This document shows, in pieces, positions 10,692-22,054 of a DNA stretch of 64,000 bases. Source of the stretch: Candidatus Zhuqueibacterota bacterium (GTDB lineage Bacteria; Zhuqueibacterota; Zhuqueibacteria; Thermofontimicrobiales; Thermofontimicrobiaceae); NCBI GenBank assembly GCA_049322915.1, contig JBMOPW010000014.1:637527-701526 (forward strand), read 5' to 3'. Each line of letters starts with the position of its first letter. The stretch's first letter is position 1. Both the position numbers and the translations under genes were made by a program. The notes beneath the pieces were generated by a model. The model saw only the letters and a program-made list of their open reading frames with translations, was not told the origin of the DNA and did not search any database.

Positions 10692-12164
10692 CTACATAAC
10701 TTTCAGCCCACGGCTTTCATAGATTTTTATCCATTTGTTGACGCACTCTGCCAGAGTATTGCCCAATTCCCGGCCGCTGCCGTGTATGGGCCGGAATTCC
10801 TCGGCAAGTTCGGAATATCCTTTGCGGTCCAACCATGTCGAAAAATAGTCGTTATCCGAATATAACTGGATTTTGCTCGGGTGAATTGTCTTGAGCACAT
10901 TGAGCAGGTCGTAGAGATTGTAGATTTTTGTATCTTCGATCAACAGCGGCGTGAACTCCATGCGTAAAATTTCGCGCCGCGTGTGGCGCTTTAAAATCGT
11001 AATCAGCCGTTTGCCTTTATCGTACCGCGGCCTCAGTTTATCACCCAGCTCCCGAAAGCCGTGCATGTACAGCCAGGTTGAAAACCAGTCCTTGCGACCG
11101 TACCGCTCCAGTATCCCTCGCAATTTCTCCGCCTCGGGCGTATCGCTATCGGCTGTGACCACGAGGTTGTAGAGTTCTTCAATATTACGGACGCGATACT
11201 GGCATTCACCGTCGACGTCCCGAATCAGAAAATCGCCCATCCCGGTGAAGTCGTGGATGTAATTTTTCAGCGTCTGCAAGCTGCCTGAATCGCCTTTGGG
11301 CATGATGAACGCGATATCTTTCAGGCTGTTGCCCTCCTCAGCCTTGGAGGCGATGATGACCGGAATGCGCTGGTAATATTTCTGCACCAGGTCGAACAGG
11401 TCTCTGCCTGCGTCGCTCTTCAGACGATCACCGATGGGAAAATACATGTCCGTGATCAGACAGACGACGTCATCGCCCCGGCCGCGCGCTGTAAAATTAC
11501 GGTCTTCAATTTCGGACTCGCTGGAGACGCCGAAGAGGAACTGCAGGGTTTCTTCGTAGGTGCGCGTAGTCATCACATCAGCGCGCTGGCCAATGATGTT
11601 GTAGAGCACCGGCAGAAACTGGGAGAACCATCGCGGCTCATCATCAACGATGAGAAAAATGTACCGTTTAACTTTGGAATACTTTTCGATATTCAGCCGG
11701 TCTTCGGCGCAACGGACGGCTGATGGCAGAATCTGCGATGGCGTGATCTCCGAATTGTCCACGGCAAGAACCAGGTCGGCTTTGGCCGTATAGGGAAATT
11801 TTTGACGGGCGACTGCCGGGGGAGAGCAATGGATTTTACTGTTGGACGAAAGCAGCACGAGGAGTATGTCCGAATTGTTCTTTCGCAGTTCCGATTCATT
11901 CACAAAATTCAGGGCAATGTCATCGCAAATGCAGACGACCGGGCCGCTGGCTGTATAGTGATTCGCCTCAGCCGGATTGGAGAGGATATCGATATTCACC
12001 CAGGGCATGCTGCTTTTGAGCGCGCGGCTCGCCTGGCGGATGTGTTCATCGGCTGAAAAGATGGCCACGCTGGCAATTTTGACCGGATTGATGATTCGGG
12101 GGATAAATTTAAATTCCCTGTGTTTGCCCGTTGCGCGGGTCTTTCGGCTTTGGCTGTAATTCAT
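10692..12164 (-). CDS. Receiver-domain protein with duplicated C-terminal FSTWL repeat; resembles the N-terminal half of gdh-associated PEP/pyruvate-binding-domain proteins
   Basis: Receiver motifs LIVDD...LITD...IIAS...MPK; GMGDFL; two repeats KDWFSTWLYMHGFRELGDKLRP / NDYFSTWLDRKGYSELAEEFRP. Confidence 0.7.
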   Translation of the reverse strand: MNYSQSRKTRATGKHREFKFIPRIINPVKIASVAIFSADEHIRQASRALKSSMPWVNIDILSNPAEANHYTASGPVVCICDDIALNFVNESELRKNNSDILLVLLSSNSKIHCSPPAVARQKFPYTAKADLVLAVDNSEITPSQILPSAVRCAEDRLNIEKYSKVKRYIFLIVDDEPRWFSQFLPVLYNIIGQRADVMTTRTYEETLQFLFGVSSESEIEDRNFTARGRGDDVVCLITDMYFPIGDRLKSDAGRDLFDLVQKYYQRIPVIIASKAEEGNSLKDIAFIMPKGDSGSLQTLKNYIHDFTGMGDFLIRDVDGECQYRVRNIEELYNLVVTADSDTPEAEKLRGILERYGRKDWFSTWLYMHGFRELGDKLRPRYDKGKRLITILKRHTRREILRMEFTPLLIEDTKIYNLYDLLNVLKTIHPSKIQLYSDNDYFSTWLDRKGYSELAEEFRPIHGSGRELGNTLAECVNKWIKIYESRGLKVM

Positions 12165-12179
12165 AGTATTGGTTGTCTG

Positions 12180-13835
12180 TTATTGCGAAACAATGACACA
12201 GCGCTGGTGGACCGAATCGGCGTAAATGGACACCGGCTGTGGAAATTTCAACACATAGACCGCATCATCAGCGGATGACGGCGTGAAAAACCAGGGGTCC
12301 AGGCTGTCTTCAATCGGTGAAATGAAACCGTAAATGACATTATTGCTCATCAGGTTGGTCAAAAAATGGGTGCCCTGCGTGCCGTACATCCGGGTCTGTT
12401 GTCGTTTCTGCTCCTCATCGAAACCACCCTGAATCATGTATAAAAAATGGCTGCCGTAGATACCGCCGGTCGGATCGCTGGCCTCTTTCTGCGGTTCTGC
12501 CCGGCCGGAGATATCGACGCCGTATTCGAACAATGCCACTGCTCCGGCCACATCGCGGTACTCCACCTGAATGCCCCAGTTGCGATTGCTGCTGCCCAGA
12601 CGGCCGGGAGCGATGAGCACATAGCCCTGGCCCTGGCGCTGTAATTCCTGGTTGATGGCGGCGATTTTTTTCAGGACTGCGTCGTGCTCTCGCTGCGAAT
12701 AAATGAACGGCGACACGGTCACCGCGTAATTCACCCCGGTTTTGATGCCGTGTCCCTGAAAATTGGAAATGGACAGGTACTGATGGTTGAAGTTCTCAGG
12801 GAAGGTGATGGCCTCAAATTTCAACACAGGCAATTGCGTCAATTGGACCACATGAAATTGCCCGCTCAGTCCGCTTTCGCTGGTCTCGGTCAGATTGAAT
12901 ACAAATTCGATTTGATAATGGGCGGTGATTTTGGCCGAGATGATATCCAGAATGGTGCACAAACCGCTTTTAAAACCGAAACGGTCCTGCTGAATCAGAT
13001 TTTCCAGGGTGATCATGTTTTTCTGCTCGCCCACCAGCGAGGCAAAGCGCCGATGAGAAAACCGCACGTGCAGTTTTTTCATGGTCTCCAATTCTTCGCC
13101 GGAGAGATGCGCGTTTTTGGACATATCGATGGCGTAAAAGACCGACTGATCGTTCTCCAAAAGCTCCAGCGAAATGGGATTGCGGATGGTCACCATGGAC
13201 TTGACCGGGAAATCGTCCAGCACGGTGGCATACCCATGTCCCAGCGCGATGCGGGCGAATCCCTCATCCGGATTTTGATTTTTCAAGGCGTACGGGAAAA
13301 ACGAATTGGCCACGCCGGAGACCAGGGGATAATAGATAGGACCGGCATCGGAATTGTCGAACAACCCCGGGATGGGATTGATGACGATGGCCATTTTTTC
13401 GCGGCTGTCCGGTGGTTGTTTTTTGAGGAAATCAGAGTAAATGAATTCAATCGCCTGAATGAACTGGTGGAATCGCGTGGCAGCATCCGGGTGATTGTTC
13501 GGGAGCATGTAGGATGTGTTTTCGCCGGCATGAACAGAGCCGCCGCCCTCCTGGGTTGTAATCGCTTCATTCGTCGCCGAAGATCGCACGCTGATGGGAA
13601 TATTGCCCAATTGCTCCAGGAGGCCGGACAGAATTTCCAGTTCTTCGCCGGTAAATCTGCGGTCGTTCATTAAATAGTGGTCGAAGAAAACAGTGGTGAG
13701 TACGCGAGTGGGCAATTTGTGCGCGGCCGGGATATTGCATTCGTTGATCTTTACAAGCCCTTCGCCTTTTCCACCCATGGATCCGGCGCCGTAAATTTTA
13801 ACGTCGCCAATTTTTTCAACAACTTTTATGCTCAT
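12180..13835 (-). CDS. PPDK/PEP-synthase N-terminal-type ATP-grasp protein lacking the pyruvate-binding barrel
   Basis: GGKGEGL, SVRSSA, HAGENTS, MAIVI, IEFVF motifs; C-terminal APGRLGSS and G(S/T)HF motifs; probable ATG 13835 after GAAGGTG. Confidence 0.75.
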   Translation of the reverse strand: MSIKVVEKIGDVKIYGAGSMGGKGEGLVKINECNIPAAHKLPTRVLTTVFFDHYLMNDRRFTGEELEILSGLLEQLGNIPISVRSSATNEAITTQEGGGSVHAGENTSYMLPNNHPDAATRFHQFIQAIEFIYSDFLKKQPPDSREKMAIVINPIPGLFDNSDAGPIYYPLVSGVANSFFPYALKNQNPDEGFARIALGHGYATVLDDFPVKSMVTIRNPISLELLENDQSVFYAIDMSKNAHLSGEELETMKKLHVRFSHRRFASLVGEQKNMITLENLIQQDRFGFKSGLCTILDIISAKITAHYQIEFVFNLTETSESGLSGQFHVVQLTQLPVLKFEAITFPENFNHQYLSISNFQGHGIKTGVNYAVTVSPFIYSQREHDAVLKKIAAINQELQRQGQGYVLIAPGRLGSSNRNWGIQVEYRDVAGAVALFEYGVDISGRAEPQKEASDPTGGIYGSHFLYMIQGGFDEEQKRQQTRMYGTQGTHFLTNLMSNNVIYGFISPIEDSLDPWFFTPSSADDAVYVLKFPQPVSIYADSVHQRCVIVSQ

Positions 13836-14001
13836 GAATTGTTGAACACCTTCAATCCCAAAATGTTCTTTTTGAAGTCGCCGTTCCCACAACAGCGATG
13901 TCGAGGCAGAGACACATTTGCACATTCCAATCACATGAGGCAGAAAGTCGACCTCACGGGATGGAATTTCCCGATTGAATCAGTGACACATTAAAATGAA
14001 A

Positions 14002-14032
14002 AGAGTGCGATGCTGAGAATGCATCGCACTCT
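14002..14032 (-). terminator. Terminator hairpin downstream of the glutamate-synthase-like gene
   Basis: AGAGTGCGATGC-7nt-GCATCGCACTCT perfect 12-bp stem followed by TTTCATTTT on minus strand. Confidence 0.75.
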
Positions 14033-14058
14033 GTTTTGATGTTGCCAAATTTGGTGTG

Positions 14059-15636
14059 TTAGCTGGCCAGAATTTGCTCGACTTCGTCGCGATCGGCATC
14101 CATGATATAGGTGATGCCGCTGATTTCAGCCGATTCCGCCGTCAACGCAGCGATATCGTTTCGGTCGATATGGGCCAGGGAGAACTTCCGGTTGCCGCAC
14201 ATCAATTGACGCAGGCCCTGGGCCAGGCGTTCGAAATAAGTGTACAACCCAATCGCGCCGGTGGGCAATTCTTTAAAAGTGTCGTTGCCCAGTTCGCGTT
14301 TCAGATCGGTTGCCGTCACGAACACTTCTTCGATATTCGAGCCGAATCGCTCCACATAAACGGGCAGCATGCCTTCATTGATTCGCTTCCCAATTGTCTT
14401 GCCAACCATCGCCGCAGCCAATGGCCCTCGCGCCATGCCGATCAGTTTGGCATAGGGCGCCAAAAGCGCCAGGCCTTTGAACATTTGATCTTCGAACGTA
14501 AATCCACCGGCCGGCGCTATTGCCGGGACATAGTCTCCATTCTGCGCCAATTGATGAACGTAATCATAGAGCAGCGAATGGAGTTCCACCGCCGGAACGC
14601 CCCATTCGTTCATCATCCGCCACGGGCTCATGCCGGTGCCGCCGCCGGCGCCGTCCACGGTGAGCAGATCGATTTTAGCTTTGGAGGCATATTTCACCGC
14701 GCGGGCCAAATCGGCCGGGCGATAGGCGCCTGTTTTCAGGAACACATATTTCGCGCCGGCGTCGCGCAGTTCCTGCACCCGTTCCATGAAGCTCTCTTCC
14801 GAAACCATGCCAACTCGCGAATGGCGCTCGAATTCCTTGAATGCCCCGGCTTCGAAGGCTTTGATCACGTTTTCGTCCATTGGATCCGGCAGCACGATGT
14901 AGCCGCGTTTTCTGAGGAGTTGCGCTTTGGCTAAATTTTTGATTTTCACTTCGCCGCCGATGTCTTTGGCGCCCTGGCCCCATTTCAATTCGACAGCTTC
15001 GACGCCCAATTCCCGAATAGCGTATTCCTGAGCGCCCAGCCGGGTGTCTTCCACGTTGGCCTGGCACACGATGACGCCGTAGCCATCCCGCTGCCATTTC
15101 TGGAACATTTTCACGCGACGCGCCAGCTCCGGAGATTTTTTCACTCTCCCGTTCACGATTTCGGATTCAGCATCCATACCCACAACATTTTCACCAATGG
15201 TGAGACCGGTGCCGGCCAGCGCTGTTCCAATGGCCAGACCTTCCCAGTTATTCAATGCAACATTGGTCGAACCCAGACCGGGAATCATGATCGGCAGTTT
15301 GAATTTCAATTTGCCAATGCGGGATTCCAGATTCACATTGGGGAAAATTGCTATGTCGCTATCCGCCTTAATTCCATGTGCGCCAACTGCCGTGCCCAGA
15401 ATTGTAAAATGAGAATAATCGACCGGGTAATTTTTTTCCGATGCGGTGGTGATGATGCCAAATGGCTGTGGGTAAATGACTTCATGTCCGCGATAGGCTG
15501 ATTTGCCAATTTCGCACATTCCAACGCAACCATCGATGCAGGTTACACACATACCGCTGAACGGGCTGATAGAATCTTCGGTTCTATTCTTTGTTAAAGT
15601 CGCCGCAGAACGATTTAAACTGGTTAAAGATGGCAT
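14059..15636 (-). CDS. Stand-alone FMN-binding glutamate synthase family protein
   Basis: IGEN, ELKWGQGAK..GG, LKTG, TVDGAGGGTG, WGVP, AGG motifs of the GltB FMN barrel; N-terminal CxxCxxxCxxxC; no amidotransferase domain. Confidence 0.88.
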   Translation of the reverse strand: MPSLTSLNRSAATLTKNRTEDSISPFSGMCVTCIDGCVGMCEIGKSAYRGHEVIYPQPFGIITTASEKNYPVDYSHFTILGTAVGAHGIKADSDIAIFPNVNLESRIGKLKFKLPIMIPGLGSTNVALNNWEGLAIGTALAGTGLTIGENVVGMDAESEIVNGRVKKSPELARRVKMFQKWQRDGYGVIVCQANVEDTRLGAQEYAIRELGVEAVELKWGQGAKDIGGEVKIKNLAKAQLLRKRGYIVLPDPMDENVIKAFEAGAFKEFERHSRVGMVSEESFMERVQELRDAGAKYVFLKTGAYRPADLARAVKYASKAKIDLLTVDGAGGGTGMSPWRMMNEWGVPAVELHSLLYDYVHQLAQNGDYVPAIAPAGGFTFEDQMFKGLALLAPYAKLIGMARGPLAAAMVGKTIGKRINEGMLPVYVERFGSNIEEVFVTATDLKRELGNDTFKELPTGAIGLYTYFERLAQGLRQLMCGNRKFSLAHIDRNDIAALTAESAEISGITYIMDADRDEVEQILAS

Positions 15637-15692
15637 TGCAAATCTCCTTAATTATTCCAAAATTAAATTCTGATTTCTTCGTTAATTACAGG

Positions 15693-16391
15693 TTATCTGC
15701 TGTGTTTCGGGATTCGTCCGGAAGCCTGTTCGCAGGCCACGCAGGGATCCATGTAACACATCATATTGTCAAAATACTCCACGCAGGGCGGTTCCAGATT
15801 GGAGCAGGCGTTGCAGATCGCGCCATCCGACTGGAAATTCGGGCCGATACACCGCATCTGGCAGGCGGGACAAATGTACATGCAACCGCCGCAGAGACGG
15901 CATTCTTCGGAGCGAATATCGAACGGCGTGGTGATGTGGCGATTGTGTCCGCGTCCGACGAATCCGATGGCTTTGCCCATCATCTGCTCGGCGCACATAC
16001 GCACACAAAGGCCGCAGTTGATGCAATCTTCGTATTCCTGTTTGAAACGCACCTGGTGCACACCGTGCTTCGAGGCCAGGTCCTGAATCACTTTAGAGCC
16101 GGGACATGTGGCCAAATGAAGTTCAATGACCATTTTCCTGGCGTCCAGGACCCGCTGGGAATTGGTGAAAACTTTCAGCCCCTCGGTGGCCGGATAGGTG
16201 CAGGAACTCACAATTTTGGTGGAGGCGCCACTGGCTATTTCCACAACGCACAACCGGCATGCGCCGTAGGGGCTCAGACCGTCGTGATAACACAATGTGG
16301 GAATGTGGAACCCATATAAATTAGCGGCCTCAAGCAAGGTGGTCCCTTCCTCTACCTGCACATCGAGACCATTCATTGTTAAATTAATCAT
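15693..16391 (-). CDS. HydA/NuoG N-terminal-like Fe-S protein (2Fe-2S + 2x4Fe-4S) with Cys-rich tail, no catalytic domain
   Basis: IPTLCYH..GACRLC..SC; CINCGLCVRMC; CRLCGGCMYICP; extra C-terminal Cys motifs. Confidence 0.85.
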   Translation of the reverse strand: MINLTMNGLDVQVEEGTTLLEAANLYGFHIPTLCYHDGLSPYGACRLCVVEIASGASTKIVSSCTYPATEGLKVFTNSQRVLDARKMVIELHLATCPGSKVIQDLASKHGVHQVRFKQEYEDCINCGLCVRMCAEQMMGKAIGFVGRGHNRHITTPFDIRSEECRLCGGCMYICPACQMRCIGPNFQSDGAICNACSNLEPPCVEYFDNMMCYMDPCVACEQASGRIPKHSR

Positions 16392-16663
16392 GGATTGCTC
16401 CCTTATTTCAGTTCAGATGATTTAATACCTATGATTCTAAAATGAAGTTTTTAAACGCCAATCGTCAAATGCCAAAAAAATTTCAATAATCAAAAAGATA
16501 CATTCGAAACTCAAACACAAGCTGATTTCATGCAGGAAGCGAACATCCGTTTGAAAATTGAAATTTGGTCATTGTCAGTTATTTGTGATTTAAAAATAAA
16601 TTTTTGGAATTTGCAGAATTTCATTTTAGAAATTCAGGTAATACATCAACATCTATCGTTTCA

Positions 16664-19600
16664 TTATTCCTGCTTCAGCAACGCCACTTCCAGCTCGCAG
16701 CGCAGACAGCGTTGGGCTTCCTTCATGGCCATTTCCTTGCTGTACACTTGCTCGACTTCTGCGAAGTTCTGAACACGATCTTTCAGAGGCAATTTGTCAG
16801 GAACCACCATGGGATAATCGACCGGGTCGGCGTCGATATCGAACGCCACGTCGGCCGGTTTATGTATTCTCCAGGGATAAACTCGCTCTCCCTTTGTCAG
16901 AAATTGATCGATGGATTCGGCAATATGCTGCCCCGCAGCGACCGCTTTGATGACGGTGGCAGGCCCGGTGGTGACATCGCCGCCGGCGAAAACATTGGGT
17001 ATACTTGTCTGGCCGGTCTTGCTGATTTTGATTGTGCCATCTTCCCATGTTTCCACCTCCAGCCCGGCGAACAATTGCTCCACGTCGGCAAATTCACCAA
17101 TGGCCGGGATGATGATATCCGCGTCCAGCATGAATTCGGAGCCTTTGCGCGGAATGGGCTTGCGTCGGCCATCTTTTCCAAAGATGTCCAGATCCATGCG
17201 GATGCACTGAATGCCGGTCACCTTTTGTCCATCGCCTAAAATCTGAACCGGCGCGGATAAAATTTCCAGCCTGGCGCCTTCTTCAATGCCGTCGTCAATT
17301 TCATCTTTGAATGCCGGCATCTCTTCCCTGGTTCGGCGGTAGACGATTGTCACGTTTCTGGCGCCCATGCGGATGCAGGTTCTGGCTGCATCGACGGCTG
17401 TATTGCCGCCGCCAACCACCACAACGCGCATGTCTTTGATATACGGCTTTTTGCCGATTTTAATATCGCGCAGAAAATCCACGCCCTGGTAAACGCCAAG
17501 CAGATTCTCGCCGTCGACGCCGAGCGAACGGTCACCGTACATTCCCACGGCCACGAAAAATGCGTCGTAGCCATCATTCATCAGGGTTTTGAAAGGAATG
17601 TCCACGCCAATTTTTGTATTTAATTTGATGTCAACGCCCATGTCTTTGATCGCATCGATTTCCCGTTGCAGGACGGAATTGGGCAGCCGACTCGCCGGGA
17701 TGGCTTCGGCCATCATGCCGCCGGCCACTTCATGGGCTTCAAAGACAGTGACCTGGTAACCCAACCGCGCCAGGAAATAAGCAGCGCTCAAACCGGCCGG
17801 GCCTCCGCCAATGACGCCGATATGATGAGGCAGTTTGGTCTTGGGAATCGGTATTTTGGGGAATTGTCCTTTTTCAGTGAGATGATCGCCGGCAAATCGC
17901 TTCAGCGCGCGGATGGCCACCGGCCCGTCGATCTGATTGCGCCGGCACTTAAACTGACAGGGATGGTCGCACACGCGGCCGCACACGGATGGGAATGGAT
18001 TGGTGTTGAGAATTTCCAGCAGGGCGTCCTCAAACCGGCCCGCGGCCGTGTACGCAATGTATGCCGGAGCGTTTGTCCCGGCCGGACAGCTATTTTGACA
18101 GGGTGAAATGTAGAGATTGCGGCACACGCTGGCGGAGCATTTCTTCTCGACGATGTGCTCGATATATTCATGTCGGAAATAGCGCAGCGTGCTCAGCACC
18201 GGATTGGACGCCGTCTGTCCCAGGCCGCACTGAGTGGTATCCGCCACCACATGAGCCAGTTCCTCTAACAGCGCCAGTTTTTCCAGCGTGCCGCGGCCTT
18301 CGGTAATATCGGTGACCAGTTCCAGCATTCGCTGAATGCCCTTGCGACAGGTGAAACATTTGCCGCACGATTCATCAAGCAGGAATGTGAGAAAATACCT
18401 GGCGACGTCCACCATGCAGGTGTCTTCGTCCATCACCACCATACCGCCTGAGCCCATGATGGAGCCGGCTTCGGCCAATTTTTCGTAATCCACCGGCAGG
18501 TTGAGCATTTCAATGGGCAGGCAGCCGCCGGAAGGTCCGCCGGTCTGCACGGCCTTAAATTTTTTGCCGCCGGGAATGCCGCCGCCGATATTGAAAATGA
18601 TGTCGCCCAGCGGAATGCCCATCGGCACTTCGACCAGACCGGTGTTATTTATCTTGCCAACCAGCGAGAAAATTTTAGTGCCTTTGCTCTTTTCAGTGCC
18701 CAGACTGGCGAACCATTCGGCGCCGCGAGTGATGATATTGGGCACGTTGGCCCAGGTCTCGACATTGTTGATGTTGGTCGGCTGGCCCCAGAGTCCGCGC
18801 TGAATGGGATAGGGTGGACGCTGTTTCGGCTCGCCCACACGTCCCTGAATCGACGCCAGGAGCGCCGTCTCTTCGCCGCAGACAAACGCGCCGGCGCCGC
18901 GCACTACTTTAAGTCGGAACGAAAATCCGCTCCCCAAAATATCATCGCCCAGCAAGCCGTATTCTTCCGCCTGTTTGATGGCCAGATTGACGCGCTTCAC
19001 GGCCAGAGGATATTCATCGCGGACGTAAACGTATCCCTCCGACGCGCCGATGGCATAGGCGCCAATGATCATGCCTTCCAGAACTGCATGGGGATCGGAT
19101 TCCAGAATGCTCCGATCCATGAACGCGCCGGGGTCGCCTTCATCGGCGTTGCACACCACATATTTTTCGGAACCGCGCGATTTGCGGCACAACTCCCATT
19201 TTAACCCGGTGGGGAAACCGGCGCCGCCACGGCCCCGAAGTCCAGAGGCCTTGATGGCTGCGATGAGTTCATCCGGTTTAAATTCGGTGAGCGCTTTGGC
19301 TAATGCGTCGTATCCGCCAAAGGCAATATATTCATCGATGATCTCGGGATCGATGCGCCCCCGATTTTTTAACACAATCAGTCGCTGATGTTTGAAGAAC
19401 TCGATATCGTTCATGGTGGGAACAGGTTCTTCTTTCTCAGGTGGGACATACATGAATTCTTTGACAGGCCGGCCTTTTTTGAAATGTTCTTCGACAAGAT
19501 GAGGTATGTTCTCCACTTTAAGTTGCTGATAAAAGATTCCTTCCGGTTGGACCACAACGATGGGTCCCCGCTCGCAAAATCCATTGCAGCCCGTGGTAAT

Positions 19601-19729
19601 CACCTGGATTTCGTTGTGAAGCCCCTGTTTCTGCAACTCCTGTTCTAACGCTGCTTTAATTTTGAAGGAACCATTGGAAACACAACCTGTACCGGCGCAA
19701 ACCAATAAATGTGCTCGATATTGTTTCAA
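16664..19729 (-). CDS. NuoF/HydB-like NADH:FMN subunit fused to GltD-like FAD/NADPH oxidoreductase
   Basis: N-terminal 2Fe-2S (CAGTGC..GCNGFC), GRGGAGFP, NADEGDPGAFMDR, GAGAFVCGEET, ESCGKCFTC..CGLG; then PCQNSCP..CGRVCDHPC, GGGPAG, GGGNTA..YRR, FAGGD, EAQRCLRC. Confidence 0.92.
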   Translation of the reverse strand: MKQYRAHLLVCAGTGCVSNGSFKIKAALEQELQKQGLHNEIQVITTGCNGFCERGPIVVVQPEGIFYQQLKVENIPHLVEEHFKKGRPVKEFMYVPPEKEEPVPTMNDIEFFKHQRLIVLKNRGRIDPEIIDEYIAFGGYDALAKALTEFKPDELIAAIKASGLRGRGGAGFPTGLKWELCRKSRGSEKYVVCNADEGDPGAFMDRSILESDPHAVLEGMIIGAYAIGASEGYVYVRDEYPLAVKRVNLAIKQAEEYGLLGDDILGSGFSFRLKVVRGAGAFVCGEETALLASIQGRVGEPKQRPPYPIQRGLWGQPTNINNVETWANVPNIITRGAEWFASLGTEKSKGTKIFSLVGKINNTGLVEVPMGIPLGDIIFNIGGGIPGGKKFKAVQTGGPSGGCLPIEMLNLPVDYEKLAEAGSIMGSGGMVVMDEDTCMVDVARYFLTFLLDESCGKCFTCRKGIQRMLELVTDITEGRGTLEKLALLEELAHVVADTTQCGLGQTASNPVLSTLRYFRHEYIEHIVEKKCSASVCRNLYISPCQNSCPAGTNAPAYIAYTAAGRFEDALLEILNTNPFPSVCGRVCDHPCQFKCRRNQIDGPVAIRALKRFAGDHLTEKGQFPKIPIPKTKLPHHIGVIGGGPAGLSAAYFLARLGYQVTVFEAHEVAGGMMAEAIPASRLPNSVLQREIDAIKDMGVDIKLNTKIGVDIPFKTLMNDGYDAFFVAVGMYGDRSLGVDGENLLGVYQGVDFLRDIKIGKKPYIKDMRVVVVGGGNTAVDAARTCIRMGARNVTIVYRRTREEMPAFKDEIDDGIEEGARLEILSAPVQILGDGQKVTGIQCIRMDLDIFGKDGRRKPIPRKGSEFMLDADIIIPAIGEFADVEQLFAGLEVETWEDGTIKISKTGQTSIPNVFAGGDVTTGPATVIKAVAAGQHIAESIDQFLTKGERVYPWRIHKPADVAFDIDADPVDYPMVVPDKLPLKDRVQNFAEVEQVYSKEMAMKEAQRCLRCELEVALLKQE

Positions 19730-19761
19730 GTTATTCTCCCTGTTAATATGAGGTTAGGTCG

Positions 19762-20145
19762 CTAAAAGGTTCGCTCACTTCCTATCGCCAAGGCGTATTT
19801 GGTGACAATGTTGCCGCCCAAAATATGTTCGCTCAAGATGGTTTTAATTTTTTCGCGGGTCAACTCCACGTATTTGACCGGCGGTTTGCCGGGAATTTCC
19901 ACCGTCACCATCGGTTCCTTGCTGCACAGTCCGGCGCAGCCTGATGTGGTGACAATGACATCCGTGATATGGCGCGATTCAAGTTCACCCATCAATGCTT
20001 CCATAATATCGCGAGCCCCGGAGGCAATGCCACACGTTCCCATGTGCACAATCACTTTCGCTCTCCCCGCTCCTTCACGAAGCACGACAGTTCCCCGGGC
20101 TTTTTCCCGGATGTTTTTCAAATCTTCAAGGGTGAGTTTAGGCAT
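19762..20145 (-). CDS. Thioredoxin-like [2Fe-2S] ferredoxin (HndB/HydD-like)
   Basis: VHMGTCGIASGAR...SGCAGLCSKEP motif, 127 aa. Confidence 0.85.
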   Translation of the reverse strand: MPKLTLEDLKNIREKARGTVVLREGAGRAKVIVHMGTCGIASGARDIMEALMGELESRHITDVIVTTSGCAGLCSKEPMVTVEIPGKPPVKYVELTREKIKTILSEHILGGNIVTKYALAIGSERTF

Positions 20146-20210
20146 AGTGTATTCCTTTTCAATTATGATACATTAAATGGAATTATCTAAACAAGCACGT
20201 GTGACATGAC

Positions 20211-20693
20211 CTACTCGGCTTTTTCCTTCGCTCCATTATGATTGCTGTATTGATCCAGAATGGCATTGACCTTCTGGGGTCGGGTATTGCCGTGATAGGT
20301 TTCGTCGACCACAACGATGGGACCCAGGGCGCAGGCGCCGAGACAGTTGACTGTCTTCAACGTGAATAACCGGTCGTCTGTGGTTTCGCCGGCCACAATG
20401 TCCAATTTCTTTTCCACCTTTTCGAGAACCCGATGTGCTCCGCGAACATGACATGCGGTTCCCAGACATACCTGCACCAGGTGCTTCCCCCGCGGCGTGA
20501 GGCTGAAGGAATTGTAAAACGAAGCGATGCCGAAAAGATCGATCAGGGGTATTTCCATTTTTTCCGAGATGTAGCGGAGTGAATCCTCAGGCAGGTAATT
20601 GTAAACTGCCTGAACATCCTGTAAAATAGCAATAATCCCGGAACGGTTTTTCCCATTTCGTTCTAAAATCTCGGCGATTGTCTCTTGTTCCAT
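20211..20693 (-). CDS. NuoE/HydC-like [2Fe-2S] subunit
   Basis: ASFY, VCLGTACHVRG, CLGAC..GP motifs. Confidence 0.92.
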   Translation of the reverse strand: MEQETIAEILERNGKNRSGIIAILQDVQAVYNYLPEDSLRYISEKMEIPLIDLFGIASFYNSFSLTPRGKHLVQVCLGTACHVRGAHRVLEKVEKKLDIVAGETTDDRLFTLKTVNCLGACALGPIVVVDETYHGNTRPQKVNAILDQYSNHNGAKEKAE

Positions 20694-21529
20694 ACGTTCA
20701 CTCCAGATTAAATTTGTATTTTATCTCAGTTACAATTTGCCAAAATAATCCAGCGAAGTGCGCGCTCCCCATTGCTTTTAACTGGCTGTATTTTCGACAC
20801 AGGCGGCAGTGCTCCTTCAATTCGCGCCGGGGAACGAATCTGAATTTCGCAGGGAGGTCACATCGATGGCCGTCGTCACGTCTCCGGCGCAGGAATCCAA
20901 ATGACCTTGCCGGCCAAATTCAGCAATTCTGGCCCGTGGGCCCAATGCTGAAGATGCATCCTTGCAATGCGCATTTTGCTGGAATATATCACATCTTCAA
21001 CAATGTATTTGGCCATAGATTTTCCCTCGTACATCTAATTGAGTTTCAGATCTCAAAAAAAACTGGTAAAATCATGTTTATCATGAGAAATATCGGATAA
21101 GACTGAACTGATGGAGAATTGGTAATATGAAGTGTGAAGCGCGAAATGGTAGCATAACACTGCTGGAATGATGAGCCTCTGCGGCGTGCACCCACGTGAG
21201 TCATTAAGTTTGTTAAAGACGCTAATACCAGATCTGTTGGGCATCATACTTGATTCAGTTCGATTATCGTTGGGTGAGGGTCGCAATCTTAACAGAATCA
21301 GATTGTATATTCAACAAATATTTATCTTAAACAAGAGTTGATTTTCGGGAGTGAATCGATTTTTCAAAATCAGCGCACCCCATCGGATTTTGGTAATGGC
21401 TGAATTTGCTTGTTCAAATTATGAATTTATTCTGTCTGGTAAAAGAATATTAGTTGAATTGGAGGCTCAACATACAAAATTATTTTCAAAGATGCAATAA
21501 CTATTTCGCTTGAAAAAAGAATTTCAACA

Positions 21530-22054
21530 TCATTTACTTTTTTGGAAAGCGCTCAGATCGACTTCGTGCCAGCCTTCGGCAAACGGCAATGGAGAAGGAC
21601 ACCAGAGAAGAATATTATAGCGGTTGGAAATTTTCTGTTGTAACTGCTGAAAGTGTTCGAAGCTGTTATCCGTATCAAATTCGTTTTTATCAAAATTTCG
21701 AATGAGCGGCTGAATGTACTTGATGTCGAAGATGATGTAACTGCCGTGGTCGACTCCAAAGATCACTTTGTTCCCTGTCGTTTCCACATCCCAGAACTGC
21801 ACCCTTTCCGCATCAAAATCATAGGTGCCCGGCCCGTCGCTGAGGCGGACCAATCCGACAAGTTCTCCGCAACCATTCGGAAATAAATGCTGGCTCAGCA
21901 GTTGAGCGGCAAGCTCCGGGGCGCTGAGGAAGTCGATGCCCGACGCTTCGATCGAGTTGGCCAGTTTCAAATAAGTCGGATCAATGATGATGAGAAAACC
22001 GGTTTCAGAAAAAATTTTCATAGAAACCTCCAAATTTATTGGACTGCTTTCCAT
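21530..22054 (-). CDS. Hypothetical protein
   Basis: 174-aa ORF with protein-like composition; no recognisable motif; start uncertain (a GGAGG-preceded ATG at 22021 is plausible). Confidence 0.55.
   Translation of the reverse strand: MESSPINLEVSMKIFSETGFLIIIDPTYLKLANSIEASGIDFLSAPELAAQLLSQHLFPNGCGELVGLVRLSDGPGTYDFDAERVQFWDVETTGNKVIFGVDHGSYIIFDIKYIQPLIRNFDKNEFDTDNSFEHFQQLQQKISNRYNILLWCPSPLPFAEGWHEVDLSAFQKSK

What the first reader, a model, noticed from the sequence alone, without database searches (positions are those of the whole stretch)
14059..20693. HydABC/Nuo-like flavin-FeS module apparently wired to a stand-alone glutamate-synthase FMN barrel instead of a hydrogenase or formate dehydrogenase
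Seen: a five-gene run of nuoE-like, ferredoxin, NuoF-GltD fusion, HydA-N-only Fe-S protein and GltB-FMN protein, closed by a terminator. No H-cluster, NiFe or Mo/W catalytic subunit is present, nor a glutamine amidotransferase or GXGXG subunit. Inference: the FMN protein replaces the missing catalytic domain, giving a multi-subunit, ammonia-using NAD(P)H-linked glutamate synthase/dehydrogenase, possibly coupling two nicotinamide pools.
Basis: partly seen in the sequence, partly recalled or inferred. Interest (0 to 1): 0.78.

Follow-up and report, generated by a model that had tools for sequence, protein, structure and literature searches.

The report
Hydrogenase-like redox complex with glutamate-synthase-like subunit
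Five adjacent genes encode an NADH-handling iron-sulfur flavoprotein module of the kind found in electron-bifurcating hydrogenases, joined to a very conserved distant relative of the glutamate synthase active-site domain; this widespread, apparently uncharacterised enzyme of uncultured anaerobes probably interconverts 2-oxoglutarate plus ammonia and glutamate.

Summary
Window 14059-20693 (minus strand) encodes five genes: a NuoE/BfuC-like protein, a small thioredoxin-like [2Fe-2S] protein, a NuoF/BfuB::GltD fusion, a short HydA/NuoG-N-terminal Fe-S protein (BfuA-like) and a 525-aa FMN protein. A strong hairpin closes the run. The operon holds no hydrogenase, FDH, amidotransferase or GXGXG part.

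The wiring is not chance. In 80 related loci from many phyla, the BfuA-like gene sits directly upstream of the FMN gene in 76 of 76 testable loci, and BfuB in 62 of 62.

The FMN protein is a very divergent glutamate-synthase (GltS) FMN domain (hhalign 98.8%). It keeps the GltS catalytic motifs, lacks the [3Fe-4S] cysteines and has an N-terminal Cys4 motif instead.

New here:
- BfuB's ferredoxin-like C-terminal domain and the GltD module replace each other at one junction, repeatedly in evolution.
- Glutamate dehydrogenase lies nearby in 9 of 80 loci and in this window.
- 38 of 56 carrier genomes have no other GltS-type protein.
- One complete chromosome has neither GOGAT nor GDH.

Best reading (about 0.5): a Bfu-type, ammonia-dependent glutamate synthase/dehydrogenase. 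The substrate and bifurcation are inferred.

This scan found the same operon at least nine times before on other DNA. My searches found no paper describing it.

The parts
20211..20693 (-). BfuC/HydC/NuoE-like [2Fe-2S] subunit (160 aa)
   Evidence: PF01257 at 166.9 bits. The best solved relatives are bifurcating HydC proteins: 8a6t_C (E 6.1e-47) and 7t2r_C. A homolog lies upstream in 55 of 56 related loci with at least 5 kb upstream.
19762..20145 (-). Small thioredoxin-like [2Fe-2S]-type protein (127 aa) with only three Cys plus a conserved His at the fourth ligand position
   Evidence: PF01257 at 24.4 bits (cut-off 24.8); NCBIfam fdxn_Clost at E 1.1e-11. A separate homolog is found in 5 of 80 loci. 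In 6 of 6 sequences H34 aligns with the first Cys ligand of the BfuB N-terminal domain, and C38, C70 and C74 are kept.
16664..19729 (-). BfuB/HydB/NuoF-like FMN subunit (residues 1-530, with an N-terminal [2Fe-2S] domain) fused to a GltD-like dicluster/FAD/NAD(P)H module (residues about 531-950)
   Evidence: PF01512, PF10589, PF14691 and PF07992. Best solved relative: 7t2r_B, the bifurcating NiFe-HydB (799.9 bits, residues 3-539). The GltD part matches 9bov_A, 9n5u_A (NfnA) and 8oh5_C. The junction with the short-form relatives is shown.
16392..16663 (-). 272-bp AT-rich intergenic gap between the BfuB::GltD and BfuA-like genes
   Evidence: Sequence read. There is one sigma-70-like consensus match (16461-16434, 9 of 12) and no terminator-like site in the gap. 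No Rfam match at E up to 1. Related loci have gaps of about 20-180 bp at this place (coordinates).
15693..16391 (-). Short BfuA-like Fe-S subunit (232 aa): [2Fe-2S], two ferredoxin-type 4-Cys motifs and a C-terminal tail with 8 further invariant Cys
   Evidence: PF13510 plus PF12838. Best solved relative: 9mqx_A, WorA of WorABCSL (E 6.6e-37, residues 2-183, aligned without the insertion that HydA has). Invariant Cys are listed. The gene lies directly upstream of the FMN gene in 76 of 76 loci with at least 750 bp upstream.
14059..15636 (-). GltS-like FMN TIM-barrel subunit (525 aa) with an N-terminal Cys-x2-Cys-x3-Cys-x3-Cys motif (C30, C33, C37, C41); the proposed catalytic subunit
   Evidence: PF01645 at 47.8 bits, residues 277-350 only. 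hhalign against canonical GltS FMN domains gives 98.8%, E 1.3e-16, 343 columns. AlphaFold2 model: pLDDT 84.7. Azospirillum GltS 6s6s_A: Z 20.3, 347 residues aligned. 1ofd_A: Foldseek rank 5. More than 8000 close homologs, about 75% identical across phyla.
14002..14032 (-). Intrinsic-terminator-like hairpin closing the operon
   Evidence: 12-bp stem with 7 G-C pairs, followed by a T-rich tail on the minus strand.
10692..13934 (-). Two downstream genes (584 aa and 490 aa) of a PPDK_N-like / receiver-domain regulator type; possibly associated, function unknown
   Evidence: The window proteins have no Pfam match themselves. They are 24-25% identical by tblastn to proteins next to the cluster in L018, L036, L049 and L086. 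Those proteins carry Response_reg, DUF5752 and PPDK_N domains.
6934..9792 (-). Large NAD-type glutamate dehydrogenase (952 aa), the genome's only ELFV-type GDH; possibly a functional partner
   Evidence: PF00208, PF23152, PF05088 and PF23147. It is the only PF00208 match in the 6.25-Mb genome.

Best explanation

Proposed parts (all wiring inferred, not shown):
- NADH is handled at the FMN of the NuoF-like subunit.
- A short WorA-like A subunit relays electrons to or from a separate catalytic subunit. It carries a [2Fe-2S] site, two [4Fe-4S] motifs and a Cys-rich tail.
- The catalytic subunit is a very divergent glutamate-synthase FMN domain. It has lost the GltS [3Fe-4S] ligands and gained an N-terminal Cys4 site.

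Proposed reaction at that FMN: reversible reduction of 2-iminoglutarate, formed from 2-oxoglutarate and free ammonia, to L-glutamate.

The arm of the core that ends in a ferredoxin-docking dicluster domain in solved Bfu enzymes is replaced in this window by a GltD-type dicluster/FAD/NAD(P)H module. So here the second partner is probably NADP(H), and in the short-form relatives it is ferredoxin.

Net reaction proposed (direction set by physiology): 2-oxoglutarate + NH4+ + 2 NADH + (Fd-ox or NADP+) <-> glutamate + 2 NAD+ + (Fd-red or NADPH).

Shown here: gene content, domain make-up, strict synteny, conserved motifs, the domain swap and the phyletic pattern. Inferred: physical assembly, substrate, ammonia use, nucleotide specificity and bifurcation.
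For: 1. Core. All three core subunits score best against solved bifurcating enzymes:
- B: 7t2r_B 799.9 bits, 7q4v_B, 9mqx_B, 9n5u_B.
- A: 9mqx_A, E 6.6e-37.
- C: 8a6t_C, 7t2r_C.
BfuB also keeps the N-terminal [2Fe-2S] domain (PF01257, residues 5-81).

2. Wiring:
- BfuA-like gene directly upstream of the FMN gene in 76 of 76 loci.
- BfuB in 62 of 62.
- NuoE in 55 of 56.
The loci come from many phyla. The FMN protein is about 75% identical across them.

3. GltS-type active site.
- hhalign 98.8%, E 1.3e-16.
- Residues that are invariant in 14 canonical or stand-alone GltS FMN domains align with invariant residues here: G148-E149; K218-x2-Q221-G-A-K224-x2-G227-G228; R244; K301; D328-x2-G-G-G-T-G-x-S-P338; G377-G378.
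- Pfam finds no other FMN family.

4. Link to glutamate.
- ELFV glutamate dehydrogenase is adjacent in 9 of 80 loci.
- The genome's only GDH lies 4.3 kb downstream in this window.

5. Complementary distribution.
- Another PF01645 protein at E <= 1e-20 occurs in 18 of 56 carrier genomes, against 43 of 71 non-carriers of the two phyla sampled.
- Frames of canonical GltB size (about 1500-1610 aa) occur in 0 of 56 carriers, against 20 of 71 non-carriers.
- The single-contig chromosome G124 has no other PF01645 match, no ELFV GDH at E <= 1e-3, and two glutamine synthetase genes.

6. No amidotransferase/GXGXG homolog in 0 of 80 loci, nor in the recurrent neighbour clusters that I scanned.

7. The Fd-like domain and the GltD module replace each other at the same junction. 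On a tree of the BfuB core, 11 changes are needed, 6 of them forced by well-supported branches.

8. Thermodynamic precedent. FngABC couples a high-potential donor (-190 mV) plus ferredoxin to NAD reduction (abstract of PMC13689815).
Against:
- The relation to GltS is distant. The family profile finds no GltS chain in the PDB at E <= 1. Pfam aligns only 74 residues.
- By VIA-align the model scores higher against alpha-hydroxy-acid dehydrogenases/oxidases and type-2 IPP isomerase (Z 25.8-24.0) than against GltS (Z 20.3, rank 21).
- Two canonical invariant motifs are not kept: M-S-x-G and S-P. The residue aligned with the Q/H of the GG(Q/H)LPG motif is an invariant Glu.
- The phyletic contrast is modest in Planctomycetota taken alone (3 of 10 against 27 of 51). 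Many genomes are MAGs of unknown completeness, and related genomes are not independent.
- Carriers without GOGAT may simply rely on GDH (4 of 5 complete chromosomes have it) or on imported amino acids.
- This genome has both a GDH and a giant GltS-type fusion protein, so the complex is not needed here for glutamate synthesis.
- The 2-oxoglutarate/glutamate couple is, from recall, about -0.12 to -0.14 V. That is much higher than the third substrates of characterised Bfu enzymes, so the roles of the branches would have to differ from the solved cases.
Confidence: 0.5

Rival explanations
1. Same complex, different substrate. The GltS-like FMN subunit reduces or oxidises some other 2-oxo, 2-hydroxy or imino acid (for example 2-hydroxyglutarate, lactate or another amino-acid-derived imine). 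The link with glutamate metabolism is then indirect.
For: - The model's best structural matches are mandelate/lactate dehydrogenases and oxidases and IDI-2 (Z 25.8-24.0), above GltS (Z 20.3) (Foldseek).
- The family profile finds no GltS chain in the PDB at E <= 1.
- Some canonical GltS invariants are changed. A family-specific invariant stretch, F-x-E-F-E-R-H-S-R (residues 266-274), has no canonical counterpart.
- GDH next door would supply 2-oxoglutarate for a following step.
Against: - Pfam matches only Glu_synthase, not FMN_dh or IMPDH.
- The K-x2-Q-G-A-K-x2-G-G and R244 motif block is GltS-specific and invariant.
- GltS gives the longest structural alignment (347 residues), and the highest TM-score and identity normalised to the query in Foldseek (1ofd_A: TMq 0.48, 17%).
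- The anticorrelation with other GltS-type genes is not expected for an unrelated substrate.
Confidence: 0.25
2. An Nfn/Stn-like transhydrogenase. The complex merely balances NADH, NADPH and ferredoxin, and the GltS-like protein is a structural or electron-storing remnant, like the inactive FDH-like part of the Sporomusa Stn enzyme.
For: - The GltD module matches the NADPH-binding parts of NfnA (9n5u_A), 9bov_A and Stn (8oh5_C).
- Stn carries a large non-catalytic NuoG/FDH-like domain (passages of PMC10482914).
- HydB::GltD fusions exist in archaeal hybrid hydrogenases (passages of PMC11216029).
Against: - 19 of 72 relatives have no GltD module at all, yet keep the GltS-like gene just as conserved.
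- The FMN-binding and catalytic motifs are invariant at about 75% overall identity across phyla. That argues for an active site under selection.
- Here GltD is fused to B, not to A as in Nfn/Stn.
Confidence: 0.1
3. A conventional glutamine-dependent glutamate synthase of the split (archaeal) type. Its amidotransferase and GXGXG subunits are encoded elsewhere, and a NuoEF-type module is the electron donor.
For: - Split GltS with stand-alone FMN subunits of about 500-560 aa exists in related genomes (frames).
- This genome encodes GATase_6 and GXGXG domains, though inside the giant fusion protein.
Against: - No homolog of that amidotransferase/GXGXG region in 0 of 80 loci.
- PF00310 has no match in this genome, which is 96.3% complete.
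- 38 of 56 carriers have no other GltS-type protein, so presumably no spare partner subunits.
- The regions that contact the other domains in canonical GltS are not conserved, and the [3Fe-4S] site is absent.
Confidence: 0.07
4. Two independent enzymes whose genes merely lie together: a Bfu-type or NADH-oxidising module that serves a hydrogenase or FDH encoded elsewhere, and a free-standing FMN protein.
For: - The genome has six further NuoF-type genes, so such modules are plentiful.
- There is a 272-bp gap with a promoter-like match inside the operon.
Against: - The order BfuB - BfuA-like - FMN gene is kept in every locus that can be tested (76 of 76, 62 of 62) across many phyla, amid otherwise unrelated neighbours.
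- The BfuA-like protein has no catalytic domain of its own. Its closest solved relative docks a separate catalytic module.
- The other NuoF paralogs can serve the other enzymes.
Confidence: 0.05

Closest known systems
WorABCSL (Wor-Bfu, tungsten aldehyde oxidoreductase with a BfuABC core) of Acetomicrobium mobile; PDB 9mqx; PMC12318220 (passages read)
   Same: It has a BfuBC-type core and a short A subunit of about 240 aa. That subunit has only the N-terminal Fe-S domain and a Cys-rich C-terminal part, and it docks a separate catalytic module. 9mqx_A is the best solved match of the window's A subunit (E 6.6e-37). 9mqx_B and 9mqx_C are also strong matches.
   Different: The catalytic module here is a GltS-like FMN protein, not a W-pterin enzyme with a polyferredoxin. 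The A-subunit tail has 8 invariant Cys, where WorA is described with one zinc finger and a helix. BfuB here ends in a GltD module.
Bfu/HydABC family of electron-bifurcating enzymes (Schut et al. 2022, PMC9304861; abstract, outline and passages read)
   Same: FMN-binding NuoF-like B subunit with an N-terminal [2Fe-2S] domain, NuoE-like C subunit, and an A subunit with 2Fe-2S and ferredoxin-type domains. The third reaction sits on an extra subunit, as in that paper's Type 2/3.
   Different: The words glutamate, GltB and GltD each occur 0 times in that paper's main text. Its list of third substrates does not include 2-oxoglutarate/glutamate. In the window's B subunit the ferredoxin-type C-terminal domain, which is part of the paper's definition, is replaced by a GltD-type module. 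I did not read its supplementary tables. They may list short-form members of this group among clades of unknown function.
FMN (synthase) domain of glutamate synthase (GltB / Fd-GltS; PF01645; PDB 1ofd, 6s6s)
   Same: FMN TIM barrel. The motif block E, K-x2-Q-G-A-K-x2-G-G, R, K and D-G-x-G-G-G-T-G-x-S-P is conserved. Structural alignment covers 347 residues.
   Different: Very distant (Pfam aligns 74 residues; no PDB hit by profile). There is no amidotransferase, central or GXGXG domain. The [3Fe-4S] cysteines are absent and an N-terminal Cys4 motif is present instead. The electron donor is a Bfu-type module rather than GltD alone or ferredoxin.
NfnABC / StnABC Bfu-type transhydrogenases (PDB 9n5u, 8oh5; PMC12018979 and PMC10482914, passages read), and archaeal hybrid hydrogenases with a GltA/GltD domain on HydB (PMC11216029, passages)
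   Same: A GltD-like dicluster/FAD/NADPH module attached to a HydBC-type core. A HydB::GltD fusion as such is on record in the archaeal hybrid hydrogenases.
   Different: In Nfn/Stn the GltD module is part of the A-type subunit and feeds the mid-potential path. Here it replaces the ferredoxin-docking domain of B. A further catalytic subunit, the GltS-like one, is present.

Membership tests
Bfu (BfuABC/HydABC-type) family as defined in PMC9304861 | BfuB with a NuoF FMN-binding domain and a NuoF [4Fe-4S] domain | tested here: met
   PF01512 at 162 bits and PF10589 at 101.8 bits. 7t2r_B at 799.9 bits over residues 3-539.
Bfu (BfuABC/HydABC-type) family as defined in PMC9304861 | BfuB soluble-ligand-binding (SLBB) domain | tested here: inconclusive
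   PF10531 at 22.1 bits, below its 27-bit cut-off. The region aligns throughout with solved HydB chains.
Bfu (BfuABC/HydABC-type) family as defined in PMC9304861 | BfuB C-terminal ferredoxin-type 2x[4Fe-4S] domain (B3/B4, the ferredoxin docking site) | tested here: not met
   In the window protein a GltD-type Fer4_20 dicluster domain follows the conserved K-x-C-x-A-x-V-C junction instead. The canonical domain is present in the 19 short-form relatives of 72. InterPro itself could not be run.
Bfu (BfuABC/HydABC-type) family as defined in PMC9304861 | NuoE-like BfuC, and BfuA with 2Fe-2S and ferredoxin-type 4Fe-4S domains | tested here: met
   PF01257 at 166.9 bits; PF13510 plus PF12838. Best solved matches are bifurcating HydC and WorA.
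Bfu (BfuABC/HydABC-type) family as defined in PMC9304861 | Electron bifurcation between NAD, ferredoxin and a third substrate | not testable with these tools
   Needs enzyme assays.
Glutamate synthase FMN (synthase) domain, PF01645 | Match to the family model above its curated cut-off, and homology over the whole domain | tested here: met
   47.8 bits against a 20.4 cut-off, but only residues 277-350. hhalign over 343 columns: 98.8%, E 1.3e-16.
Glutamate synthase FMN (synthase) domain, PF01645 | Catalytic and FMN-binding motif block (G-E; K-x2-Q-G-A-K-x2-G-G; R; K; D-G-x-G-G-T-G-x-x-P) | tested here: met
   E149, K218, Q221, K224, G227-G228, R244, K301 and D328...P338 are invariant or nearly so, and align with canonical invariants. 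The canonical M-S-x-G and S-P motifs are not kept.
Glutamate synthase FMN (synthase) domain, PF01645 | [3Fe-4S] cluster cysteines (G-C-x5-C-x4-C) after the barrel | tested here: not met
   The aligned stretch, V-G-K-T-I-G-K-R-I-N-E-G, has no Cys. Four N-terminal Cys (30, 33, 37, 41) are conserved instead.
Glutamine-dependent glutamate synthase (GOGAT holoenzyme) | Class-II amidotransferase, central and GXGXG domains, in the protein or as partner subunits | tested here: not met
   Absent from the 525-aa protein and from the operon. 0 of 80 loci hold a homolog of the genome's GATase_6/GXGXG region. PF00310 has no match in this genome.
NfnABC / StnABC transhydrogenase | GltD-like FAD/NADPH module carried on the NuoG-like A-type subunit, with no further catalytic subunit | tested here: not met
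   The GltD module is present (NF009410 at 482 bits; 9n5u_A and 8oh5_C), but it is fused to B. The A subunit is only 232 aa, and a GltS-like subunit follows.
FMN-dependent alpha-hydroxy-acid dehydrogenase/oxidase family (PF01070) | Sequence match to the family; fold similarity | tested here: inconclusive
   No PF01070 match at E <= 0.001. The best structural Z scores go to this family (1huv_A: Z 25.8, 299 residues aligned, rmsd 3.3). I did not map its catalytic residues.

The most novel reading that the evidence does not exclude
This is an undescribed, very widespread class of Bfu enzyme: an ATP-independent, ammonia-dependent glutamate synthase that stands in for GS-GOGAT and GDH. It is the main entry or exit point of nitrogen in many uncultured anaerobes (Zixibacteria, KSB1, Aminicenantes, Planctomycetota, Ignavibacteria and others). 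NADH oxidation would be split between the high-potential iminoglutarate and a low-potential acceptor. That acceptor has been switched repeatedly in evolution between ferredoxin (short form) and NADP+ (GltD form), by swapping one C-terminal module.
Probability: 0.3. Interest if true: 0.85.

Novelty: new variant of a known kind. Interest (0 to 1): 0.7.

Why it matters
If the reading holds, a central step of nitrogen metabolism runs through an enzyme type that no textbook pathway or annotation pipeline recognises. That step is the making or breaking of glutamate, in a large share of uncultured anaerobic bacteria. Databases call the catalytic subunit only 'FMN-binding glutamate synthase family protein', and at least one genome paper read the neighbouring genes as a bifurcating hydrogenase (PMC6338057 passages).

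It would add a high-potential, nitrogen-linked third substrate to the Bfu family. The Fd-domain/GltD swap is a natural experiment on what the low-potential branch of these enzymes can deliver to. Metabolic reconstructions of these phyla, covering hydrogen budgets, NADPH supply and ammonia assimilation, would need correcting.

Tried and rejected
- Complex prediction (BfuA-like with GltS-like, alignments A2 and A1) was not available. Nothing was folded, so physical contact is untested.
Co-transcription is untested.
- The sequence search of the 525-aa protein against PDB chains found nothing at E <= 1. The family profile found only a chance-level OMP decarboxylase match (E 0.038).
- The first structure model (19 close sequences) was poor (pLDDT 67.3, N-terminal 100 residues under 50). 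With it GltS ranked only 37th (Z 14.2). The model from a more diverse alignment superseded it.
- A sigma-54 promoter search (TGGCAC-N5-TTGCW, up to 2 mismatches) gave 31 matches against 36 expected. None lies in the 836-bp region upstream of the first gene. The GAF-kinase / sigma-54 regulator pair seen upstream in 35 of 80 loci is not in this window.
- No Rfam family matches 13900-21600 at E <= 1.
- The PF01645 hit on contig C39 is IMP dehydrogenase, not a paralog.
- The long NuoE forms of relatives (about 283 aa) do not contain the window's separate 127-aa protein. Their extension is an unrelated Cys-rich tail.
- Literature: seven full-text searches and passages of eleven papers gave no description of a Bfu or NuoEF-type module with a GltB-like subunit. 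Subscription journals and supplementary tables were not seen.
- The recurrent neighbour clusters c6, c8, c13 and c14 gave nothing relevant.

Full report
**What is there.**

Between 14059 and 20693 the minus strand carries five ORFs in a row:
- A 160-aa NuoE/HoxE-like [2Fe-2S] protein (PF01257, 166.9 bits).
- A 127-aa thioredoxin-like ferredoxin-type protein (PF01257 at 24.4 bits, just under the cut-off; NCBIfam fdxn_Clost at E 1.1e-11).
- A 1021-aa fusion of a NuoF/HydB-like FMN subunit with a GltD-like dicluster/FAD/NAD(P)H module (PF01512, PF10589, PF14691, PF07992).
- A 232-aa protein with a [2Fe-2S] domain and a ferredoxin-type dicluster domain (PF13510, PF12838).
- A 525-aa protein whose only Pfam match is Glu_synthase, 47.8 bits over residues 277-350.

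A 12-bp-stem hairpin with a T-rich tail follows at 14002-14032. The 272-bp AT-rich gap at 16392-16663 is real. It holds one weak sigma-70-like match, no terminator-like site and no Rfam match. The operon contains no hydrogenase, molybdopterin, amidotransferase or GXGXG domain.

**The module is a Bfu-type core.**

The NuoF-like part (residues 3-539) scores best against the B subunits of solved electron-bifurcating enzymes:
- NiFe-HydB 7t2r_B (799.9 bits), FeFe-HydB 7q4v_B, WorB 9mqx_B, NfnB 9n5u_B and 8a6t_B.
- Complex I Nqo1 scores far lower (383 bits, core only).

The GltD part matches 9bov_A, NfnA 9n5u_A and 8oh5_C. The B subunit keeps the N-terminal thioredoxin-like [2Fe-2S] domain. The NuoE-like protein is closest to HydC 8a6t_C and 7t2r_C.

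The 232-aa protein is closest to WorA, 9mqx_A (E 6.6e-37). It aligns over residues 2-183 without the insertion that HydA proteins have. In the Wor-Bfu structure, WorA is a short A subunit. Its Cys-rich C-terminal part docks a separate catalytic module (passages of PMC12318220).

An alignment of 21 A-subunit homologs shows these invariant cysteines:
- The [2Fe-2S] ligands.
- Two C-x2-C-x2-C-x3-C motifs.
- Eight further invariant Cys in the last 55 residues.

**The FMN protein belongs to the module.**

The 525-aa protein has more than 8000 close homologs, about 75% identical across phyla. Where they are named at all, they are called 'FMN-binding glutamate synthase family protein'.

I fetched 80 loci from one-genome-per-species contigs. 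They include Zixibacteria, Latescibacteria, Aminicenantes, Planctomycetota, Ignavibacteria, Bacteroidota, Deltaproteobacteria, Firmicutes, Spirochaetes and others. I mapped the window's proteins on them:
- The A-like gene lies directly upstream of the FMN gene in 76 of 76 loci with at least 750 bp upstream.
- BfuB is present in 62 of 62 loci with at least 4 kb upstream.
- NuoE is present in 55 of 56 loci with at least 5 kb upstream. The exception, L026, has it further upstream.

Other neighbours vary. This is as strong as synteny evidence gets. Physical assembly remains inferred, because the complex predictor was unavailable.

**What the FMN protein is.**

By sequence it is a very distant GltS FMN domain:
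- It has no PDB hit as a single sequence or as a family profile.
- A profile-profile comparison with 14 canonical and stand-alone GltS FMN domains taken from related genomes gives 98.8% probability, E 1.3e-16, over 343 columns.

Residues that are invariant in the canonical set align with residues that are invariant here:
- G148-E149 (canonical S-G-E-G-G).
- K218-W-G-Q221-G-A-K224-D-I-G227-G228 (canonical I-K-x-A-Q-G-A-K-P-G-x-G-G).
- R244 and K301.
- D328-G-A-G-G-G-T-G-M-S-P338.
- G377-G378.

From recall, not from any call, the Q-G-A-K lysine and the following arginine correspond to the 2-oxoglutarate-binding K972 and R992 of the Azospirillum enzyme.

Not conserved:
- The canonical M-S-x-G and S-P motifs.
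- The Q/H of GG(Q/H)LPG, which is an invariant Glu here.
- The three [3Fe-4S] cysteines, which are absent.

Instead, C30, C33, C37 and C41 near the N-terminus are conserved, even in members only 31-54% identical.

A model built with the diverse alignment is good (pLDDT 84.7, pTM 0.87). Its fold matches were:
- VIA-align: mandelate dehydrogenase 1huv_A (Z 25.8, 299 residues, rmsd 3.3), IDI-2 2zru_A (Z 25.7) and lactate oxidases rank above Azospirillum GltS 6s6s_A. GltS has Z 20.3, rank 21, but the longest alignment: 347 residues, model 23-509 on chain 788-1189.
- Foldseek: Fd-GltS 1ofd_A is fifth (E 3.5e-9), with the highest query-normalised TM-score (0.48) and identity (17%) in the list.

So the fold is an FMN TIM barrel of the GltS / hydroxy-acid-oxidase / IDI-2 / IMPDH group. 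The specific link to GltS rests on sequence profiles and motifs, not on fold rank.

**Two forms of the B subunit.**

Of the 72 loci with a BfuB hit, 53 have the long GltD-fused form and 19 a short form of about 616 aa. An alignment shows that both share the sequence up to a conserved K-R-C-x-A-x-V-C junction:
- The short form continues with the usual HydB ferredoxin-like 2x[4Fe-4S] domain.
- The long form continues with the GltD dicluster domain and its FAD/NAD(P)H part.

In solved Bfu enzymes that C-terminal domain (clusters B3/B4) is the end of the low-potential branch and the ferredoxin docking site (passages of PMC12018979 and PMC10482914).

On a FastTree of the B core (54 rows), the long/short label needs 11 changes. 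Six of these are forced by well-supported branches. That is no fewer than shuffled labels need (mean 12.6). One row, L070, was mislabelled short because its ORF is cut by the contig end, so the true numbers may be one lower. The module has therefore been exchanged repeatedly. The window's own clade of five holds three long and two short forms.

I infer that the GltD module takes over the role of ferredoxin as partner of that branch. A HydB::GltD fusion as such has been noted in archaeal hybrid hydrogenases (passages of PMC11216029).

**Links to glutamate.**

- An ELFV glutamate dehydrogenase lies beside the cluster in 9 of 80 loci: L011, L033, L035, L036, L038, L048, L049, L059 and L084. A stricter tblastn count gave 8.
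- In this window, the genome's only ELFV-type GDH (a 952-aa NAD-type enzyme, 6934-9792) lies 4.3 kb downstream on the same strand.
- Between it and the operon are two genes (12180-13934 and 10692-12164). Their homologs carry receiver, DUF5752 and PPDK_N domains and sit next to the cluster in L018, L036 and L049, with GDH also adjacent in L036 and L049.
- In 35 of 80 loci, a GAF histidine kinase and a sigma-54-dependent response regulator precede the operon. They are not in this window, and I found no sigma-54 promoter here.

**Phyletic pattern.**

In a sample of the window's phylum, 18 of 121 genomes carry the gene. In a Planctomycetota sample, 10 of 61 do. It is therefore an accessory, patchily distributed module.

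I then asked which genomes hold another PF01645 protein at E <= 1e-20:
- Own phylum: 7 of 17 carriers against 16 of 20 non-carriers. The 20 were those listed by handle, out of 103 non-carriers.
- 30 carriers that I picked from other lineages, including five complete chromosomes: 8 of 30.
- Planctomycetota: 3 of 10 carriers against 27 of 51 non-carriers.

Taken together, 18 of 56 carriers and 43 of 71 non-carriers hold one. Open frames of canonical GltB size (about 1500-1610 aa) occur in 0 of 56 carriers and 20 of 71 non-carriers. One carrier, G063, has a 928-aa frame that scores like a canonical GltB, probably cut by its contig.

The single-contig chromosome G124 (locus L037, short form) has the following:
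- No PF01645 match other than this gene (44.7 bits).
- No ELFV GDH at E <= 1e-3.
- Two glutamine synthetase genes.

The other four complete chromosomes have one to three GDH matches each.

These contrasts fit a stand-in for GOGAT. They are weakened by unknown MAG completeness, by relatedness among genomes, and by a modest effect in Planctomycetota alone. The window's own genome is not a clean case. It has the GDH and, on contig C20, a 2888-aa protein combining FAD_binding_4, a 4Fe-4S dicluster, a GltS FMN domain (213 bits), GATase_6 and GXGXG. PF00310 itself has no match in this genome.

**No amidotransferase partner.**

The GATase_6/GXGXG region of that giant protein has no tblastn match (E <= 1e-3) in any of the 80 loci. 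None of the recurrent neighbour clusters that I scanned is such a protein.

**Mechanism proposed.**

The wiring below is inferred. NADH binds at the B-subunit FMN. One path runs through the A subunit ([2Fe-2S], two [4Fe-4S], Cys-rich tail) to the N-terminal Cys4 site and the FMN of the GltS-like subunit. There 2-iminoglutarate, formed from 2-oxoglutarate and free ammonia, is reduced to glutamate. The other path runs through the NuoE-like [2Fe-2S] to the C-terminal module of B, then to ferredoxin (short form) or via FAD to NADP+ (this window).

The relevant potentials are:
- 2-oxoglutarate/glutamate couple: about -0.12 to -0.14 V (recalled).
- NADH under cell conditions: about -280 mV (PMC9304861 passages).
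- Ferredoxin: about -500 mV (same passages).

The energetics would therefore resemble NADH-driven bifurcation to a high- and a low-potential acceptor. In reverse, glutamate plus reduced ferredoxin would reduce NAD+. This parallels the recently described FngABC, which couples glycerol-3-phosphate (-190 mV) and ferredoxin to NAD (abstract of PMC13689815). Whether the enzyme bifurcates at all, and in which direction it works in cells, is open.

**Comparison with the literature and earlier notes.**

Schut et al. 2022 list hydrogen peroxide, pyruvate, CO, aldehydes, aryl-CoA esters, NADP, F420, formate and quinones as third substrates, 'as well as many yet to be discovered'. Glutamate, GltB and GltD do not occur in the main text. 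I did not read its supplements.

Seven full-text searches found no description of this enzyme. A paper on an Ignavibacteria-related MAG reads NuoEFG/HydABC-like genes elsewhere in the genome as a bifurcating hydrogenase (PMC6338057 passages). That may be this cluster, but I did not check.

This scan has met the same operon on other genomes at least nine times. Those notes reach the same architecture and also found no paper.

My tests repeat their architecture independently. They add the domain-swap analysis, the GDH statistics, the carrier/non-carrier comparison and the G124 case.

**Verdict.**

This is a real, strictly conserved operon for a Bfu-type flavin/Fe-S complex with a GltS-like catalytic subunit. 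It is a new variant of a known kind of enzyme. The main rival is the same complex acting on another substrate.

Noticed in passing
own genome, contig C20 (locus L087:4412-13078, + strand); outside the window: A single 2888-aa ORF combines FAD_binding_4 (GlcD-like), a 4Fe-4S dicluster, a GltS FMN domain (213 bits), GATase_6 and GXGXG. The order is permuted relative to canonical GltB. Frames of about 2800-3030 aa with the same partial PF01645 match occur in at least six other genomes of the phylum: G113, G070, G084, G054, G046 and G022.
   Followed up: partly
window 10692-13934, minus strand: Two genes (584 aa and 490 aa) have no Pfam match themselves. Their homologs, fused to about 1000 aa in L036 and L049 and split in L018, carry Response_reg, DUF5752 and PPDK_N domains. 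Those homologs sit beside the Bfu/GltS-like cluster, with glutamate dehydrogenase also adjacent in L036 and L049. They may be a regulator of this gene set.
   Followed up: partly
window 6934-9792, minus strand: A 952-aa large NAD-type glutamate dehydrogenase (GDH2_N, GDH_2nd, Bac_GDH_CD, ELFV_dehydrog). It is the only ELFV-type GDH found in the genome.
   Followed up: partly
window 19762-20145, minus strand, and homologs in L015, L026, L033, L060, L071: The small thioredoxin-like ferredoxin-type protein has only three Cys. A conserved His (H34, in V-H-M-G-T-C-G) aligns with the first Cys ligand of the BfuB N-terminal [2Fe-2S] domain in 6 of 6 sequences. This could be a His/Cys3-ligated cluster or no cluster at all.
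   Followed up: partly
window 20694-21529: An 836-bp stretch without an ORF of 60 aa or more on the minus strand lies upstream of the first gene of the operon. I found no sigma-54-type promoter there, although 35 of 80 related loci have a GAF kinase / sigma-54 regulator pair upstream.
   Followed up: partly
L026:2300-5245 and L071 (related loci): Between the NuoE-like and BfuB genes, two relatives carry a 427-632-aa protein with an [FeFe]-hydrogenase large-subunit C-terminal domain plus ferredoxin motifs, and a HATPase_c protein. This looks like a sensory-hydrogenase-type regulator set.
   Followed up: no
15 related loci, e.g. L016:4724-5179, L035:4845-5180, L038:3771-4070: A small conserved ORF (about 100-150 aa, cluster c6, no Pfam match) sits between the sigma-54 regulator and the NuoE-like gene.
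   Followed up: no
L016:5234-6082 and most related loci: The NuoE-like protein is about 283 aa in most relatives. It carries a C-terminal extension of about 130 aa rich in C-x2-C pairs (zinc-ribbon-like). The 160-aa protein of this window lacks it, and it is unrelated to the window's separate 127-aa protein.
   Followed up: partly
own genome, six other contigs: Six further NuoF-type (PF01512) genes are present, in frames of 419-666 aa. Two of them (607 and 666 aa) are of HydB size and probably belong to other Bfu-type enzymes.
   Followed up: no
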